This document shows, piece after piece, positions 58,139 to 62,418 of a stretch of DNA of 64,000 nucleotides (positions within the stretch are counted from its first letter, which is position 1; each line of letters starts with the position of its first letter). The notes beneath the pieces are model-generated. The model searched no databases, had not been told where the DNA came from, and worked only from the letters and a program-made list of their open reading frames with translations. The translations under genes were made by a program, and so were the position numbers. Origin of the DNA: Candidatus Gastranaerophilales bacterium (GTDB lineage: Bacteria; Cyanobacteriota; Vampirovibrionia; Gastranaerophilales; Gastranaerophilaceae); the NCBI GenBank assembly GCA_944324135.1, contig CALUVE010000001.1, forward strand, positions 35,241-99,240, read 5' to 3'.

Positions 58139-58483
58139 TTTAAGTCTTTAATACCTTTCTATCACCATAATTACTTACTACTACGGCAACTTCTACTATA
58201 TCCTAATTTGTGTAAATGTTGCTCATACTTTCGTATGAAATCCACATTTTTTATTTAAGGTTTTTTTTTGAGAAGTCAACCCCGCAGGAGGTGCATGTTT
58301 CGGGGTTTTGTTACAAAATGTTAACTTGTTAAATCCCCCCGTTTTATAAGGGTTTTCGCCATTTTATTGCATGAAAATCCGCTCATTCATGCAATTTTAA
58401 AGGATAAAAATTTTTTATATAAGCATAGGGGATAATTAAAGTAAATAATTTTCTTTTCACGGGGAAAATTGAAAGGGGAAAAA

Positions 58484-60277
58484 ATGTCACTACAATTAAC
58501 ACGATTACAAGCTGCTTTGAACGGTGAACCGACAAACGGTGTTGTTCCTAAAAAATTAACACCGGAAGAAGAAGCGGCTAAAAAGAAAGCTCAAGAAGAA
58601 ATGATGTTTAACTTCAAAAAGGCATCAGAAGAATTAAGCAAAACTGACAATCTGGAATTGAACGGTAAGAAAAATAAAGAAAACCGTGAAATAAGATTGA
58701 ATGCTTTGGTAGATTATTTCCAGAACGGCTTTGGACTTACTGAAAAAGAAGCCAAAGAAGTTGCAGAACTTGCCTTGAAAGATGAACAGGCAGAAGAACG
58801 TGTTGAACACACAAGATTGTATTTCTATAAAGATAAATATAAAGCTAACAAAGACAAGGACAAAGAAGAAGGTTTTGAAGCAAAATACATCAAGAATAAA
58901 TCTGTAAGAAAAGCTATACTTGCAAGACCTGAATTGTTCTTTGTACAAAATCCGGACGGAACATTTGCACTTGATGAAAATAATCAAATGATATTTTCAC
59001 AGGCAAAATATAACAATACAATGCTTGAACATACAGGCGATTACAGAATGGAACTCAGTGAAAGAGCAAATCTTGCAGCTGAACTTGATATCAAAAAACG
59101 TAATGCTAAACAGATGGCAAAATACGGAAACTTTGATTATGAGAAAGACAGAACATGGCTTTACAGAGCAGCAGCAATTCTGGCAGGCACAGGATTAGGC
59201 ACTGTAGTCGGCGGAGTTCTCGGTAATTTCTCACACACAAACATCGACATAGCTCACCTGTCACAGGCTATAGATGCAGAAAACGGTGAATTACTTGCAG
59301 AAAAATTAAGAGAAATTTCAATCTCTGATAACAAGCTTAAACAGTTTGCAGCTGTCGGCGGCTTGAGCAGCTTACTCCCGTCAATAGCACTGTCAATGTT
59401 TATCAAAGACAGAGGTAAATCAAGCATTATGCAGACAACAGCAGAAAACATTGTTCAAAACGGTGTAAATTCTGTTAAAGGCGAAGATAACAAGAAACTT
59501 GTTTCAGGTATCTTAGAACTTATGGATGCTGCAGGTTTGAAAGATGAACAAAAAGTCAGATTGATAGAAATCACACAGGGTATCGCATCCGGTAAACATA
59601 CAACAGAACGTGAAATGGCTGCACTGGCAAAAGAAATGAAAGATATCCTGACAATTGAACCGCAGCCGGAACCGGAACCGGAAGACGAAGGCGGTGAAGA
59701 AGAAGTTGTTGTTACACCAACACCAACCCCGACACCAACTCCGGAACCTAAAGTTGAATACGGTGCACAAATTACACCTAGAGAAGAAACCAAAACAGAA
59801 ACAGAAGACGTATTCCAATACCACCATACATCAGGTGAATACTGGTCAGGTATTGCAAAAGAAATGTACGGAGTAGATGATGCAACAGCATACAAACTCG
59901 GTAAAGAATTGAAAAAACGTCACGGATATGCACCATCATCAGCAGATATGCCGAAGATTGTTAACCTCCCGAAAGAACTTCTTGGACACAAAAGAAAATA
60001 TGACAACGAAGATGAGGTTAAACGTATCAGAAGTAATCAGGCAAGTAACGGCAGACAAAGAGCAACAAGTTCATTCAAGCCTAATACAACAACAGTTACA
60101 ACAACTGTATATGATGGTTCTGTATCAAGAACAAAAAATCCTGATACTGAACAGGCTCAAACAGAGTCCAAACAGGTTAAGAAAGGTATGGAAGAAACAG
60201 AAGCAAAAGGCTGGTTGGAAAGAACTTGGCAGACAATCAAAGAAACACCTGAAAAAATCGCAAAACTTTTTGAGTAA
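58484..60277 (+). CDS. Hypothetical membrane protein with a Pro/Thr/Glu linker and a LysM-like segment
   Basis: ATG with an AAGGGG RBS. Two hydrophobic helices (AAAILAGTGLGTVVGGVLG, AAVGGLSSLLPSIALSMFI), the linker EPQPEPEPEDEGGEEEVVVTPTPTPTPTPEP, then YHHTSGEYWSGIAKEMYGVDDATAYKLGKEL. Confidence 0.5.
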   Translation: MSLQLTRLQAALNGEPTNGVVPKKLTPEEEAAKKKAQEEMMFNFKKASEELSKTDNLELNGKKNKENREIRLNALVDYFQNGFGLTEKEAKEVAELALKDEQAEERVEHTRLYFYKDKYKANKDKDKEEGFEAKYIKNKSVRKAILARPELFFVQNPDGTFALDENNQMIFSQAKYNNTMLEHTGDYRMELSERANLAAELDIKKRNAKQMAKYGNFDYEKDRTWLYRAAAILAGTGLGTVVGGVLGNFSHTNIDIAHLSQAIDAENGELLAEKLREISISDNKLKQFAAVGGLSSLLPSIALSMFIKDRGKSSIMQTTAENIVQNGVNSVKGEDNKKLVSGILELMDAAGLKDEQKVRLIEITQGIASGKHTTEREMAALAKEMKDILTIEPQPEPEPEDEGGEEEVVVTPTPTPTPTPEPKVEYGAQITPREETKTETEDVFQYHHTSGEYWSGIAKEMYGVDDATAYKLGKELKKRHGYAPSSADMPKIVNLPKELLGHKRKYDNEDEVKRIRSNQASNGRQRATSSFKPNTTTVTTTVYDGSVSRTKNPDTEQAQTESKQVKKGMEETEAKGWLERTWQTIKETPEKIAKLFE

Positions 60278-60335
60278 TGTAATCTCCCCAAATATAAAAA
60301 ACGGAAGAGCTCCTGAGAAATCAGGGGCTTTTTCG

Positions 60336-61586
60336 TTAAACAACAGTTACCCCGAAAGGAACGCTTTTGAGGTTATTTTTGACCCAGAAACCGTCAGCGG
60401 GTGCGAATTCACCGTTGAGTAGAAAGTAAGTTGAGCCGGAGCCGGACATAACAGAATCCGGATATTTATTTTTAATATCCTGAAGTTCTTCATAGTCGTC
60501 AATTACAGCCCATTCAAGGTCATTCAAAAACTCTTCTCTATGGTGTGGTACCCCCCCACCTAACCTCCCCCGCCGGTGGGGAGGAATATTAGTATCAGTA
60601 ATTATTTGTTCTAGATATTCCAAAACACTATCTATATTTTCAAAAATATCATTATTCCATATTCTTATAATCTTAAAACCTTGTGATTGCAAAAATTCAT
60701 CACGTTTTTTGTCAGATTCCATATGATTATTTTCGTTGTGTTGTCCGCCATCCAGTTCTATAATAAGTTTTTTCTCAAAACAAATGAAATCAACGATATA
60801 GTTGCCGATAATTTGCTGCCGTCGGAATTTAAGATTATGGAACTGTTTTTTTTGTAAATAGTACCATAAAATTTTTTCTGCTTCGGTCATTGCTTTTCGT
60901 AACTGTCTGGCGTGCAGAGTAAGATTTTTGCTTTGTGGATTTTTATTGGATGACTCCGGAGGTTTAATATTTGTTCCTCCCCCCTCTGTGGGGGAGGTCA
61001 GGTGGGGGGATTGTTGTTTTGCCGCAAATTTTGTGTAAGCTTCTTTTGCGCTAATGCCGAGATTTTTCGGCTTTATCAGAGAAACAGTAAATTCTTCAAA
61101 CGGCTGCTGTTCTAAAATTTCCCCTCTGCCGGAGGTCTTTTGCCGACCGCCCTCCAGACATAAATTCAAATCAGAACCCAAAGCGGCGCATAGTTCATGC
61201 AAATCTTTACGGCTCAATGGACGCATAAATATTTCGTTCAACCCGAACAGAGTCCCTGCGGCATCCGTGCTCCCGCCGGCAAGACCGGCTGCAACCGGTA
61301 TGTTTTTTTCTATGTAAATTTCAATCTCTGCATTTATTCCTGTCCGGTCTAAAAACAACGTTGCTGCTTTATGGACAAGATTTTTTTCGTTATAAGGAAT
61401 TTCGTCACTCGTGCCGGAGAGTTTAATTTCTGTCCGGTCTGATTTTAGTGCTGAGATTGTCAGGTAATCATACAGGCTGATTGTCTGCATTACGCTGTCT
61501 ATGTTATGAAACCCGTCTTGACGGCGGTTGAGAATTTTTAACGTCAGATTAATTTTTGCGGGACACCGGACTTTAATTTTTTCCAT
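60336..61586 (-). CDS. ispE: 4-diphosphocytidyl-2-C-methyl-D-erythritol kinase (IspE) carrying an in-frame ~154-aa DUF559 insertion
   Basis: N-terminal PAKINLTLKI, GHMP motif PVAAGLAGGSTDAAG, and C-terminal MSGSGSTYF. Residues ~193-346 are a DUF559 domain. Overlaps rsmA by 14 nt. Confidence 0.85.
   Translation of the reverse strand: MEKIKVRCPAKINLTLKILNRRQDGFHNIDSVMQTISLYDYLTISALKSDRTEIKLSGTSDEIPYNEKNLVHKAATLFLDRTGINAEIEIYIEKNIPVAAGLAGGSTDAAGTLFGLNEIFMRPLSRKDLHELCAALGSDLNLCLEGGRQKTSGRGEILEQQPFEEFTVSLIKPKNLGISAKEAYTKFAAKQQSPHLTSPTEGGGTNIKPPESSNKNPQSKNLTLHARQLRKAMTEAEKILWYYLQKKQFHNLKFRRQQIIGNYIVDFICFEKKLIIELDGGQHNENNHMESDKKRDEFLQSQGFKIIRIWNNDIFENIDSVLEYLEQIITDTNIPPHRRGRLGGGVPHHREEFLNDLEWAVIDDYEELQDIKNKYPDSVMSGSGSTYFLLNGEFAPADGFWVKNNLKSVPFGVTVV
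60551..61009 (-). mobile_element. DUF559 (Vsr-like PD-(D/E)xK endonuclease) cassette bounded by GC-rich hairpin inverted repeats
   Basis: 34-nt arms at 60551-60584 and 60976-61009 are inverted repeats, 19/20 identical over CCCCCCACCT(A/G)ACCTCCCCC. The enclosed sequence reads LRKAMTEAEKILWYYL..FRRQQIIGNYIVDFICFEKKLIIELDGGQH..IIRIWNNDI. Confidence 0.6.
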
Positions 61587-62418
61587 TTTTTAGTTCCTCT
61601 GACAGTTTTCCGAGAGTTTCTATTGAGAGGTTTTCAGCACGTGTGTTTTCGCCAAGCCCTAATTTTGCTATGGCATTTTGAATGTTTTCTTTTGAAAAAC
61701 CGCCGCTTAAAAGGCAGTTTTTAATATTTTTTCTCCGCTGGGAAAAGGCAGCTTTTACTGTTTTTCTAAAATGCGTATAGTCGCTCAATTCTATACGCGG
61801 CTTGTCTTTGATTACAAGTTTTACAAGCGCGGAATTTACTTTTGGTGCAGGATAGAAAGAACGGCGTCCCACCAGCCTGAAAATTTCAACATCTGCCCAG
61901 AACTGTGAAAGTATTGTTAACAATCCGTATTGTTTGGAGGGAGATTTTTCATCTGCAGCCATACGGCGGGCAACTTCTTCTTGCACCATGAGGATAATTT
62001 CAGTTATTTTGTTGCGGTTTTTGTTGTCTATGTCGTCTACTTCACCGAGCAGGTGGGCGATAATGGGGCTTGTAATATAGTACGGAATATTGGCAACAAC
62101 TTTTACTTTGCCCTCACAGAGTGAGGAAATGTCTGTTTTCAAAATATCATTATGGATTATTGTAAGATTTGGTGCATCAAGTTTTTCAAGTTCTTTTACC
62201 GCTTCTTCATCCAGCTCTATTGCAATGACTTTTCCGGCATGTTTTACCAGCTGTTCCGTTACAAACCCGACCCCGGGACCTATTTCTATTACTGTTTCGT
62301 CGGGTTTGATATCGGCTTTGTCAATGATTGCTTTAATCGCATCCCCGTCAATAAGAAAGTTTTGTCCGAGGCGTTTTTTTGTTCTGAAAAATTTTGCTCG
62401 TTCGAAGTAGTTAACCAT
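61573..62418 (-). CDS. rsmA: 16S rRNA (adenine1518/1519-N6)-dimethyltransferase RsmA/KsgA
   Basis: KKRLGQNFLID and VIEIGPGVGFVT SAM motifs, plus NIPYYITSPI. Start set at MVNYFERAK; the upstream 74 codons of the tracked ORF look non-coding. Confidence 0.85.
   Translation of the reverse strand: MVNYFERAKFFRTKKRLGQNFLIDGDAIKAIIDKADIKPDETVIEIGPGVGFVTEQLVKHAGKVIAIELDEEAVKELEKLDAPNLTIIHNDILKTDISSLCEGKVKVVANIPYYITSPIIAHLLGEVDDIDNKNRNKITEIILMVQEEVARRMAADEKSPSKQYGLLTILSQFWADVEIFRLVGRRSFYPAPKVNSALVKLVIKDKPRIELSDYTHFRKTVKAAFSQRRKNIKNCLLSGGFSKENIQNAIAKLGLGENTRAENLSIETLGKLSEELKNGKN

What the first reader, a model, noticed from the sequence alone, without database searches (positions are those of the whole stretch)
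60551..61009. Complete DUF559 endonuclease cassette with GC-rich hairpin inverted repeats, inserted in-frame inside ispE
The minus-strand ORF 60336-61586 (416 aa) begins and ends as an ordinary IspE/GHMP kinase. The N-terminal part has KINLTLKI and PVAAGLAGGSTDAAG, and the C-terminal part has NDLEWAV and MSGSGSTYF. Residues ~193-346, however, are a full DUF559 / Vsr-like domain (LRKAMTEAEKILWYYLQKKQFHNLKFRRQQIIGNYIVDFICFEKKLIIELDGGQH...GFKIIRIWNNDIFENIDSVLEYL).

Two 34-nt G+C-rich arms bound the insert: CCCCCCCACCTAACCTCCCCCGCCGGTGGGGAGG (60551-60584) and CCTCCCCCCTCTGTGGGGGAGGTCAGGTGGGGGG (60976-61009). They are inverted repeats of each other, with 19 of 20 matches over the outer arm and an identical GGGGAGG end. 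Each can also fold into its own CCTCCCC/GGGGAGG hairpin. They are read through as linkers (SPHLTSPTEGGG and PPHRRGRLGGGV). These are the only strongly GC-rich tracts I noticed in this AT-rich window.

The span as delimited is 459 nt, a multiple of three, and there is no stop or frameshift. It therefore looks like a small mobile cassette that landed in the variable loop between GHMP motif 2 and motif 3 of an essential MEP-pathway enzyme and is carried as a nested domain. From memory, DUF559 genes elsewhere often sit between similar GC-rich G/P-coding flanks, which would fit a mobile unit. I do not know of a described nuclease-in-IspE architecture.
Basis: partly seen in the sequence, partly recalled or inferred. 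Interest (0 to 1): 0.8.

Follow-up and report, generated by a model that had tools for sequence, protein, structure and literature searches.

The report
Nuclease cassette nested inside ispE
An essential isoprenoid-pathway kinase gene (ispE) of a gut Gastranaerophilales bacterium carries, in frame, a small DUF559 nuclease gene bounded by G+C-rich palindrome halves, and comparison with related genomes shows that this cassette is gained, lost and swapped like a selfish homing element that needs no splicing.

Summary
ORF 60336-61586(-) is a 416-aa IspE with a complete DUF559 (Vsr-like) nuclease domain at aa 221-327. The domain lies between two G+C-rich ends that are inverted repeats. A 99%-identical allele from another sample lacks exactly 459 nt (window 60542-61000).

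The same chimera occurs in dozens of independent assemblies of Candidatus Gastranaerophilales. In this order DUF559 sits in or on ispE at three positions: an N-terminal fusion, after residue ~83, and after residue 193.

The cassette behaves as a mobile unit:
- Strains with about 99-100% identical flanks carry cassettes only ~55% identical, a solo palindrome, or a small footprint.
- The nuclease core is under purifying selection (omega 0.04) and keeps all family-invariant residues.
- The ends are conserved at the DNA level. Third codon positions are identical at 58/61 sites, against 108/195 in the core.
- The ends encode disordered Pro/Gly linkers in the AlphaFold model.

No intein, intron or second ispE was found. 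The closest characterised relative is the I-Bth0305I homing-endonuclease catalytic domain.

Similar cassettes sit inside PriA, PrmA, TrmD, LeuRS, AroE, RecO, QueH and other proteins. I found no published description.

Best reading: a splicing-free, translated-through, homing-type nuclease cassette. Cleavage activity and target are untested.

The parts
60336..61586 (-). Chimeric ispE ORF, 416 aa. Its start overlaps the end of rsmA.
61008..61586 (-). IspE N-terminal part (aa 1-193), holding K10 in PAKINL, motif 2 PVAAGLAGGSTDAA and GSDLN.
   Evidence: AF2 pLDDT is mostly above 87.
60976..61009 (-). Upstream end of the cassette (L-end). It consists of outer arm A, CCCCCCACCTGACCTCCCCC (60990-61009), overlapping the small hairpin CCTCCCCC-ACAGA-GGGGGGAGG (60976-60997). 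It is translated as SPHLTSPTEGGG.
   Evidence: The linker is disordered in the model (aa 193-217).
60606..60926 (-). DUF559 / Vsr-like PD-(D/E)xK nuclease domain, aa 221-327. G+C is 0.30.
60551..60584 (-). Downstream end of the cassette (R-end). It consists of the small hairpin CCTCCCCACC-GGCG-GGGGAGG (60564-60584) overlapping outer arm A', GGGGGAGGTTAGGTGGGGGG (60552-60571). It is translated as PPHRRGRLGGGV.
   Evidence: The linker is disordered (aa 332-346).
60542..61000 (-). The 459 nt (153 codons) absent from the 99%-identical allele L001. Placement is ambiguous by 4 nt because CACC occurs at both junctions (61001-61004 and 60542-60545).
60336..60541 (-). IspE C-terminal part (aa 349-416 plus stop), holding NDLEW and motif 3 MSGSGST.
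   Evidence: AF2 pLDDT is 89-97.

Best explanation
The insert is a selfish, horizontally exchanging nuclease cassette. It lives inside an essential gene without any splicing, because it is built to be translated through.

**Anatomy (shown).** On the coding strand the order is A-[B loop B']-DUF559-[B loop B']-A'. A/A' and B/B' are the halves of one ~45-50-nt G+C-rich palindrome. The cassette has no start or stop codon of its own. It is in the frame and orientation of ispE. Its two ends encode Pro/Gly-rich disordered linkers. The ~107-aa nuclease domain therefore hangs from a surface loop while both IspE halves fold normally.

**Dynamics (shown by comparison).**
- The cassette is lost by deletion between short direct repeats in its two ends. 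This leaves either a solo palindrome or a few bases.
- Whole cassettes, ends included, are replaced by divergent ones in otherwise near-identical genes.
- Three separate DUF559 lineages occupy three positions of ispE in Gastranaerophilales.

**Mechanism (inferred).** The nuclease is made as part of IspE. It cuts or nicks the allele that lacks it, either the solo palindrome or the unoccupied site. Repair from a filled allele then copies the cassette in, which is homing. The palindrome halves are kept at the DNA level because they are the recognition or recombination substrate.
For: **Real and reproducible.** Cluster P0001 (99% identical) has 43 member sequences, all 416 aa among those listed. 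They lie on dozens of contigs from NCBI, ENA and Logan.

**Presence and absence.**
- L001 lacks exactly 459 nt in a 99%-identical gene.
- L012 versus L013: the flanks are 99.2% identical. The DUF559 core is replaced by a perfect 20-bp-stem palindrome, and the junction repeat is GGGAGGG.
- G/P-rich remnants sit at the same site in several DUF559-less alleles.

**Horizontal exchange.**
- L010 versus L011 are about 100% identical over more than 3 kb, but only ~55% identical over the ~440-nt cassette, with sharp borders. Host dS is 0.05 against cassette dS 2.06.
- At the protein level, P0021/P0028 hosts are 98% identical with inserts 48% identical. P0008/P0009 hosts are 96% identical with inserts 60% identical.
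- L002 versus L003 shows the reverse: cassette dS 0.20 against host dS 0.95.

**Three sites, three lineages**.

**Nuclease maintained.**
- omega is 0.04.
- The residues that are at least 90% conserved in free-standing DUF559 are equally conserved in nested copies at all three sites. They include D266, E277, D279 and H283.

**Ends constrained as DNA.**
- Third codon positions are identical at 58/61 sites in the ends against 108/195 in the core, Fisher p 6e-10.
- G+C is 0.69-0.72 in the ends against 0.30 in the core.
- The arms differ between cassettes yet stay complementary.

**Tolerated fold.** In the AF2 model (pLDDT 82.7) both domains are confident and the linkers at aa 193-217 and 332-346 score below 50. 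The model matches IspE crystal structures.

**Relatives.**
- The family profile hits 3HRL (E 3.5e-38) and then the I-Bth0305I homing-endonuclease catalytic domain 3R3P (E 9e-5).
- The domain model matches 3HRL (TM 0.91), 3R3P (TM 0.77) and Vsr (TM 0.54).
- Vsr-like homing endonucleases are established (PMC2677866, PMC3239194).

**Generality.**
- 44 of the best 150 representatives are at least 300 aa. The 41 not seen in earlier calls have DUF559 between G/P-rich linkers, and all 3 IspE chimeras do too (P0003, P0079 on both sides; P0058, an N-terminal fusion, on the IspE side only). In 28 of the 30 scanned with Pfam it sits in or on another protein family. These include PriA, PrmA, PrmC, AroE, TrmD, LeuRS, RecO, QueH, YkuD, HydF, HsdS and DNA methylases.
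Against: - No cleavage activity, target site or conversion event has been observed. Homing is inferred from population patterns only.
- Ordinary homologous recombination through the conserved ispE flanks could move cassettes with no nuclease action. These genomes are mosaic elsewhere too.
- Host and insert identities are positively correlated (rho 0.5-0.6), so most inheritance is vertical.
- The 107-aa domain lacks the extra DNA-binding region that gives I-Bth0305I its specificity.
- The same family of hairpin ends occurs widely without an adjacent DUF559. In the metagenome scan, about 90 of 129 matches have the small hairpin, but only 6 loci have DUF559 nearby.
- Free-standing copies have the ends in the opposite order, R-end-gene-L-end. 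A simple 'insertion into a palindrome' model does not explain this.
- Only in-frame, co-oriented copies could be found by a protein search, so '86 of 86 in frame' is not an independent test.
Confidence: 0.6

Rival explanations
1. Domesticated fusion. An old insertion became a fixed, vertically inherited extra domain of IspE that now serves the host, for example in a DNA-related moonlighting or regulatory role. Differences between strains would then be ordinary indels in a variable loop.
For: - The cassette is retained across many species.
- Host and insert identities are correlated (rho 0.5-0.6).
- The nuclease is under strong purifying selection (omega 0.04) and keeps its conserved catalytic residues.
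- The filled allele dominates in the window's own species, with 43 member sequences against 2.
Against: - Cassettes are swapped inside 98-100%-identical genes.
- The cassette is lost in 99%-identical strains with no sign of harm.
- 36 of 121 related IspE clusters (the 120 plus the window) lack any DUF559.
- Three independent lineages occupy three sites.
- The same kind of cassette sits in more than 15 unrelated host families. This argues against an IspE-specific function.
Confidence: 0.12
2. Palindromic-repeat element with a passenger gene. The G+C-rich hairpins would be a REP/MITE-like repeat family mobilised in trans by some other enzyme, or prone to recombination and slippage. DUF559 would merely be carried between two copies, and its nuclease would play no part in movement.
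For: - The hairpin family is widespread without DUF559.
- Ends occur as solo palindromes, as direct repeats (L002/L003, L041, L052) and as inverted repeats.
- Loss happens by recombination between short repeats in the ends.
- DUF559 genes are enriched among predicted inversion targets, that is, genes lying between inverted repeats (PMC9881135, Table 1).
Against: - The window has no other copy of the arms in 64 kb.
- The roughly 100 kb of flanking DNA in the Gastranaerophilales loci examined holds no DUF559 outside ispE. The arms themselves were not searched for there.
- No transposase or RAYT gene lies at the locus (gene tables).
- DUF559 lies within 30-110 nt (250 nt for one of the two matches in L052) of the motif in 6 of 120 loci. 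I estimate this at about 50 times the chance expectation; that figure was not computed.
- The nuclease is kept intact by selection in nested copies.
Confidence: 0.2
3. Intein, intron, or artefact. The insert would be removed at the protein or RNA level, or it would be an assembly chimera or a decaying pseudogene.
For: The insert is in frame in a conserved gene, as inteins are. The long-range arms could pair in RNA.
Against: - Pfam finds no Hint or intein domain. The junction residues (..QQSPH|LTSP.. and ..GGVPH|HREE..) lack the intein Cys/Ser/Thr and His-Asn signatures.
- Rfam gives no match at E up to 1 over 60200-61700.
- The frame stays open through about 150 codons in an A+T-rich genome in every variant seen.
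- The chimera is assembled independently many times.
- IspE motifs are intact and no second ispE lies in the window.
Confidence: 0.03

Closest known systems
Vsr-like / EDxHD homing endonucleases (I-Bth0305I; Dassa et al. 2009, PMC2677866; Taylor et al. 2011, PMC3239194)
   Same: - They share the nuclease fold and are related in sequence. The profile hits 3R3P at E 9e-5 and the fold match has TM 0.77.
- They are selfish insertions at fixed sites in conserved genes.
- The pattern here of presence/absence and of incongruence with the host gene is the one generally taken as a mark of homing elements (my own knowledge; not checked in those papers).
   Different: - Those enzymes sit in group I introns, in split or whole inteins, or as separate ORFs that break the host gene in two.
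- They carry an additional DNA-binding region.
- Here there is no splicing element. The nuclease has no start or stop codon of its own, is translated as part of the host enzyme, and is bounded by palindrome halves.
ShiLan-type in-frame homing insertion in a phage DNA methylase (Arsenault et al. 2025, PMC11855218)
   Same: - It is an insertion that stays open in the host frame.
- It is neither an intein nor an intron.
- It is predicted to loop out of the host protein.
- It shows homing-like evolution.
   Different: - There the nuclease (HNH) is hidden in another reading frame, and the in-frame peptide is only a loop.
- Here the nuclease domain itself is in the host frame.
- Here the host is a bacterial housekeeping gene, the element has G+C-rich palindromic ends, and it has many hosts.
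Rickettsia palindromic elements (RPEs). The comparison rests on my own knowledge of Ogata et al. 2000; only lists papers that mention RPEs and none was read.
   Same: They are palindromic repeats inserted in frame in protein-coding genes. They are translated into extra surface segments without destroying the host protein.
   Different: RPEs encode no enzyme and are A+T-rich, multi-copy repeats. Here the palindrome is split around a nuclease gene and is single-copy in the 64-kb window.
REP / RAYT (REPIN) systems (own knowledge; PMC3733652 appears in the list but was not read)
   Same: A small nuclease-type gene is flanked by inverted copies of a G+C-rich palindromic repeat that also occurs elsewhere on its own.
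   Different: RAYTs are HUH transposases and REPs are extragenic and abundant in the same genome. Here the enzyme is a PD-(D/E)xK nuclease and the unit sits inside coding sequence.
Inteins
   Same: They are in-frame selfish elements in essential genes and often carry a homing nuclease.
   Different: Here there is no Hint splicing domain and there are no splice-junction residues. The insert evidently stays in the mature protein.

Membership tests
IspE (4-diphosphocytidyl-2-C-methyl-D-erythritol kinase, TIGR00154 / GHMP kinases) | The score exceeds the curated equivalog cut-off. | tested here: met
   178.6 bits against a cut-off of 138.7.
IspE (4-diphosphocytidyl-2-C-methyl-D-erythritol kinase, TIGR00154 / GHMP kinases) | The GHMP motifs and the full-length fold are present on both sides of the insert. 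| tested here: met
   - PAKINL, PVAAGLAGGSTDAA, GSDLN and MSGSGST are present.
- Both halves align to a profile of 261-aa relatives.
- The AF2 model matches IspE crystal structures 4EMD and 2V2Q (TM 0.75-0.78 on the target).
IspE (4-diphosphocytidyl-2-C-methyl-D-erythritol kinase, TIGR00154 / GHMP kinases) | Kinase activity of the chimera. | not testable with these tools
   This needs complementation or an enzyme assay.
DUF559 (PF04480; Vsr-like PD-(D/E)xK nucleases) | The Pfam gathering score is passed over the whole domain. | tested here: met
   132.8 bits against 20.6, covering profile positions 2-106 of 109. 3HRL matches at E 1.6e-22.
DUF559 (PF04480; Vsr-like PD-(D/E)xK nucleases) | The family-invariant (putative catalytic) residues are present. 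| tested here: met
   R230, E237, W241, R256, Q257, D266, E277, D279, G280, H283, R295 and R308 are present. Each is at least 90% conserved in nested and free-standing copies alike.
Homing endonuclease gene (functional class) | A nuclease ORF sits at a fixed site in a conserved gene, with presence/absence polymorphism among close relatives. | tested here: met
Homing endonuclease gene (functional class) | The history of the element is incongruent with that of its host gene. | tested here: met
   L010/L011; P0021/P0028 and P0008/P0009; L002/L003.
Homing endonuclease gene (functional class) | The nuclease cleaves the unoccupied allele site-specifically and drives gene conversion. | not testable with these tools
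   No experiment was possible and the target is unknown.
EDxHD family (I-Bth0305I) | Sequence and fold relationship to the catalytic domain. | tested here: met
   The profile hits 3R3P at E 9e-5. Foldseek gives E 1e-4 and TM 0.77. The single sequence did not reach 3R3P at E 1e-3.
EDxHD family (I-Bth0305I) | Two-domain architecture with an N-terminal DNA-binding region, and residence in an intron or intein. | tested here: not met
   The insert is 153 aa in total, and only the ~107-aa catalytic domain is folded. There is no intron and no intein domain.
Intein | A Hint splicing domain and conserved splice-junction residues. | tested here: not met
Group I / II intron or other known RNA | A match to a covariance model. 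| tested here: not met
   There is no Rfam match at E up to 1 in 60200-61700.
MITE / RPE-like palindromic element | Terminal inverted repeats. | tested here: met
   30 nt, 83% complementary; the outer 20 nt match at 19/20.
MITE / RPE-like palindromic element | Multiple dispersed copies in the same genome, and a target-site duplication. | tested here: not met
   The arms occur only at this cassette in the 64 kb. The junction repeats (CACC, GGGAGGG) are equally explained as deletion microhomology. The whole genome was not available.
Known anti-phage defence systems (PADLOC) | A full-length match to a system component. | tested here: not met
   There are only weak partial matches (E at or above 4e-7) to the DUF559-like ends of DpdF, Hhe and others.

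The most novel reading that the evidence does not exclude
DUF559 together with its split G+C-rich palindrome is a distinct, phylum-spanning class of mobile element: a 'splicing-free' homing cassette.

- Its ends would serve two roles. They would be the nuclease's DNA recognition and insertion substrate. They would also be stop-free coding sequence for flexible linkers, letting the cassette colonise surface loops of essential enzymes (IspE, PriA, TrmD, LeuRS, PrmA and others).
- On this reading, the main biological role of the large DUF559 family would be selfish rather than repair. The family holds 12,320 clusters at 50% identity with E up to 1e-10.
- In three of the five cassettes compared (window, L013, L004) arms A and A' differ by a transition that would give a G.T mismatch when they pair. 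A fourth (L011) gives C.A and the fifth (L010) has identical arms. This hints at Vsr-type mismatch nicking of the extruded palindrome as the initiating step.
Probability: 0.35. Interest if true: 0.85.

Novelty: new variant of a known kind. Interest (0 to 1): 0.72.

Why it matters
- **A testable role for a large family of unknown function.** DUF559 (27,123 representative clusters) gets a concrete hypothesis: a selfish homing-type nuclease tied to a specific palindrome.
- **A third way to live inside an essential gene.** Besides introns and inteins, a nuclease gene can simply stay in the protein, buffered by disordered linkers that its own DNA ends encode.
- **Annotation and assembly.** These chimeras are currently named as plain IspE or as odd fusions. 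The hairpins also break scaffolds.
- **Natural permissive insertion sites.** The cassettes mark such sites in many enzymes, which is useful for domain-insertion engineering.
- **A possible source of new nucleases.** They may offer small sequence- or structure-specific nucleases.

Tried and rejected
- **Assembly chimera.** Rejected: the same 416-aa protein lies on dozens of contigs from three sources.
- **Pseudogene with a second ispE.** No second copy lies in the window, the motifs are intact, and host-part omega is 0.04-0.15. The whole genome could not be checked.
- **Intein or intron.** Rejected.
- **'Fractured' ispE (P0122/P0123, which start inside the cassette).** For P0123, L134 shows a 100-N scaffold gap exactly at the upstream hairpin. 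This is an assembly gap, not a split gene. P0122's contig was not examined.
- **High-copy dispersed repeat in this genome.** The arms are unique in the window. No DUF559 lies outside ispE in the window or in the roughly 100 kb of other related loci fetched.
- **Metagenome scan for the R-arm motif.** Most hits are hairpins of the same family without DUF559. This was informative about the breadth of the family but not decisive for mechanism.
- **Co-evolution of hairpin type with nuclease lineage.** This is not clean. Free-standing P0200, P0201 and P0225 carry the window's PHLTSP end, but their nucleases are only ~50% identical.
- **Programmed inversion.** Flipping the cassette between the outer arms would truncate IspE at residue 205. 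No inverted allele was looked for, so this is left as a lead from PMC9881135.
- **Defence system.** Only weak partial PADLOC matches were found.
- **Literature.** Seven searches found no description of the IspE chimera or of hairpin-bounded nested DUF559. The library lacks most subscription journals.
Full report
**1. The observation**

The minus-strand ORF 60336-61586 encodes 416 aa.
- Pfam finds DUF559 at aa 221-327 (E 5.7e-39) and GHMP_kinases_N at aa 69-138.
- The NCBIfam ispE equivalog is passed, 178.6 bits against a cut-off of 138.7.
- A profile I built from 26 uninterrupted relatives of 261-273 aa aligns aa 3-193 to positions 2-193 and aa 349-415 to positions 194-260. The extra 155 residues therefore sit at one point of the IspE sequence.
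- The two arms form a 30-nt inverted repeat. Their outer 20 nt match at 19/20 and occur nowhere else in the 64 kb, against zero matches in 100 shuffles.
- The arms are two of only six tracts in the window with at least 75% G+C over 30 nt.

**2. Origin and reproducibility**

- The closest genomes are MAGs of Candidatus Gastranaerophilales.
- The 99%-identical cluster P0001 has 43 member sequences, all 416 aa among those listed. They lie on dozens of contigs from NCBI, ENA and Logan.
- This is not an assembly chimera.
- The window holds no second ispE.

**3. Exact limits of the insert**

- A Logan contig (L001) encodes a 263-aa IspE that is 99% identical to the window's flanks. It lacks exactly 459 nt, window 60542-61000, with CACC at both junctions.
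- This 'empty' allele still carries TCCCCCCACC, the outer part of the upstream arm. A never-invaded relative (L005) has nothing like it there.
- I therefore read L001 as a microhomology deletion of the cassette, not as a virgin site.
- A second pair shows the other route of loss. L013 (filled) and L012 are 99.2% identical. L012 lacks the DUF559 core and has a perfect palindrome, CCCCCCACCCTAGCCCTCCC..GGGAGGGTTAGGGTGGGGGG, with junction repeat GGGAGGG. Its folding energy is -27.7 kcal/mol, z -7.2.
- Several other DUF559-less alleles carry short G/P-rich remnants at the same position.

**4. Anatomy**

- In the five cassettes read at the DNA level that have this layout (window, L004, L010, L011, L013), the order on the coding strand is A-[B loop B']-DUF559-[B loop B']-A'.
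- In other words, a long palindrome is split, and its inner small hairpin is present on both sides.
- L002 and L003 instead have ~90-nt direct repeats on both sides.
- The arms differ between cassettes but remain complementary within each cassette, for example L011 against L010.
- In L004, L010 and L013, third codon positions at conserved residues are identical at 58/61 sites in the ends. The figure is 108/195 in the nuclease core, Fisher p 6e-10.
- G+C is 0.69-0.72 in the ends, 0.30 in the core and 0.43 in the host parts.
- The ends are therefore constrained as nucleic acid, not only as linker peptides.

**5. The protein**

- The AlphaFold model has mean pLDDT 82.7. Both IspE halves and the nuclease domain are confident. 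Residues 193-217 and 332-346, the translated ends, score below 50.
- The model matches IspE crystal structures.
- Modelled alone, the domain matches 3HRL (TM 0.91), the I-Bth0305I homing-endonuclease catalytic domain 3R3P (TM 0.77, E 1e-4) and, more weakly, Vsr.
- The family profile reaches 3R3P at E 9e-5.
- All residues that are at least 90% conserved in free-standing DUF559 are equally conserved in nested copies.
- No Hint domain is found, and no Rfam family matches.

**6. Distribution within the order**

Among the 120 best IspE clusters, DUF559 sits at three positions:
- an N-terminal fusion (22 clusters);
- after profile position ~83 (24 clusters);
- after position 193 (40 counting the window itself).

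Counting the window as one more (121 in all), 36 have none. The nuclease domains group mainly by site, which means three separate colonisations. Some relatives carry a GIY-YIG domain at the N-terminus instead.

**7. Mobility**

- Host and insert identities are correlated (rho 0.5-0.6), so descent is mostly vertical.
- There are sharp exceptions:
  - P0021/P0028: hosts 98% identical, inserts 48% identical.
  - P0008/P0009: hosts 96% identical, inserts 60% identical.
- At the DNA level, L010 and L011 are about 100% identical over more than 3 kb but ~55% identical over the ~440-nt cassette, ends included. Extra differences occupy roughly 50-100 nt on the 3' side.
- For that pair, dS is 0.05 in the host against 2.06 in the cassette.
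- The opposite occurs in L002/L003, with cassette dS 0.20 against host dS 0.95 and omega 0.04 for the nuclease. That pair is mosaic elsewhere too, however.
- Whole cassettes therefore move between otherwise near-identical genes. Whether the nuclease drives this is inferred, not shown.

**8. Beyond ispE**

- Free-standing DUF559 genes of CPR bacteria, Chloroflexi, Desulfobacterales and others have G/P-rich tails. Three of them end in HPHLTSP.., the window's own upstream end.
- A metagenome scan for the R-arm motif found 120 loci. About 90 of 129 matches have the small hairpin. In 6 loci a DUF559 gene lies beside the motif (within 30-110 nt; 250 nt for one of L052's two matches), usually in the order R-end-gene-L-end.
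- A full-library search with the insert gave 27,123 representatives at E up to 1e-3 and 12,320 at E up to 1e-10.
- Of the best 150 representatives, 44 are at least 300 aa. The 41 not seen in earlier calls have DUF559 between G/P-rich linkers, as do all 3 IspE chimeras (for the N-terminal fusion P0058, on the IspE side only).
- Pfam on 30 of them found another protein family in 28. DUF559 is nested in or fused to PriA, PrmA, PrmC, AroE, TrmD, a TsaB-like protein, YkuD, a SixA-like phosphatase, M14 peptidase, HydF, RecO, LeuRS, AP_endonuc_2, QueH, HsdS, Type ISP and DNA methylases. In at least six the host profile is reported as two stretches.

**9. What is known**

- Vsr-like homing endonucleases are known in introns, in inteins and as ORFs that fracture genes (PMC2677866, PMC3239194, bioRxiv 10.1101/2025.01.02.630785).
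- An in-frame, non-splicing homing insertion with a hidden out-of-frame HNH was described in a phage methylase (PMC11855218).
- Palindromic elements translated inside Rickettsia genes are known. This comparison rests on my own knowledge.
- DUF559 genes were statistically enriched among predicted inversion targets, without comment from the authors (PMC9881135).
- I found no description of hairpin-bounded DUF559 cassettes translated inside housekeeping enzymes, or of the IspE chimera. The library is incomplete.

**10. Verdict**

- It is best described as a splicing-free, translated-through, homing-type nuclease cassette.
- I class it as a new variant of a known kind.
- It is one instance of a broad pattern for which I found no published description.

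Noticed in passing
proteins P0241-P0384; not in the window: DUF559 between G/P-rich linkers is nested in or fused to many other host proteins. These include PriA, PrmA, PrmC, AroE, TrmD, LeuRS, RecO, QueH, YkuD, HydF, M14 peptidase, AP_endonuc_2, HsdS and DNA methylases. 44 of the best 150 representatives are at least 300 aa.
   Followed up: partly
P0098, P0099, P0107, P0026 (relatives of the window ORF 60336-61586): Some Gastranaerophilales IspE proteins carry an N-terminal GIY-YIG nuclease domain (PF01541) instead of, or in addition to, DUF559. It is joined through ..AIA(D/E/G)Q(V/A)RND.. peptides, which look like the translation of a different palindromic repeat.
   Followed up: no
P0026, IspE profile position 82-83: A 20-aa insert, HPEFISGSQSEMLKQVQHD, sits at the same position where other lineages carry DUF559 (site B). 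It is possibly a solo repeat of another hairpin family.
   Followed up: no
window 60552-60571 / 60990-61009; L012, L013, L004, L011: When the outer arms A and A' are paired, they differ by a transition that gives a G.T mismatch in the window and L012/L013. In L004 there is a T.T mismatch as well, and in L011 the mismatch is C.A. Vsr enzymes act at T:G mismatches. This may be coincidence, because transitions are the commonest substitutions.
   Followed up: partly
L134:about 2380-2480: A 100-N scaffold gap lies exactly at the upstream hairpin of an ispE cassette. It produces truncated gene calls (P0123). These ends break assemblies.
   Followed up: yes
P0004 vs P0068: The two IspE proteins are identical through ~aa 173 (up to ..SLIKP, about 20 residues before site C) and clearly different after it. 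One has the cassette and one does not. This suggests a recombination breakpoint near the insertion site.
   Followed up: no
P0356 vs P0055: A DUF559 99% identical to an N-terminal (site A) ispE cassette is followed by a different, unidentified downstream protein. The same cassette therefore lies next to different genes.
   Followed up: partly
L002:1900-3700 vs L003: The gene downstream of ispE (a ~598-aa protein without Pfam hits) shows alternating blocks of 60-75% and 97-98% identity between two related genomes. Recombination mosaicism is therefore not confined to the cassette.
   Followed up: no
window 61573-61586; P0039, P0075: rsmA and ispE overlap by 14 nt in the window. In two relatives a single 719-aa ORF joins RsmA, IspE and DUF559.
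   Followed up: no
window 60552-61009: Inverting the cassette between its outer arms would truncate IspE at residue 205. DUF559 genes are reported as enriched among predicted programmed-inversion targets (PMC9881135).
   Followed up: partly
window 58469-60277 (+): The convergent neighbour encodes a 602-aa protein with (PE)n and (TP)n low-complexity runs and no obvious family. Its orthologues are the mosaic gene noted above.
   Followed up: no
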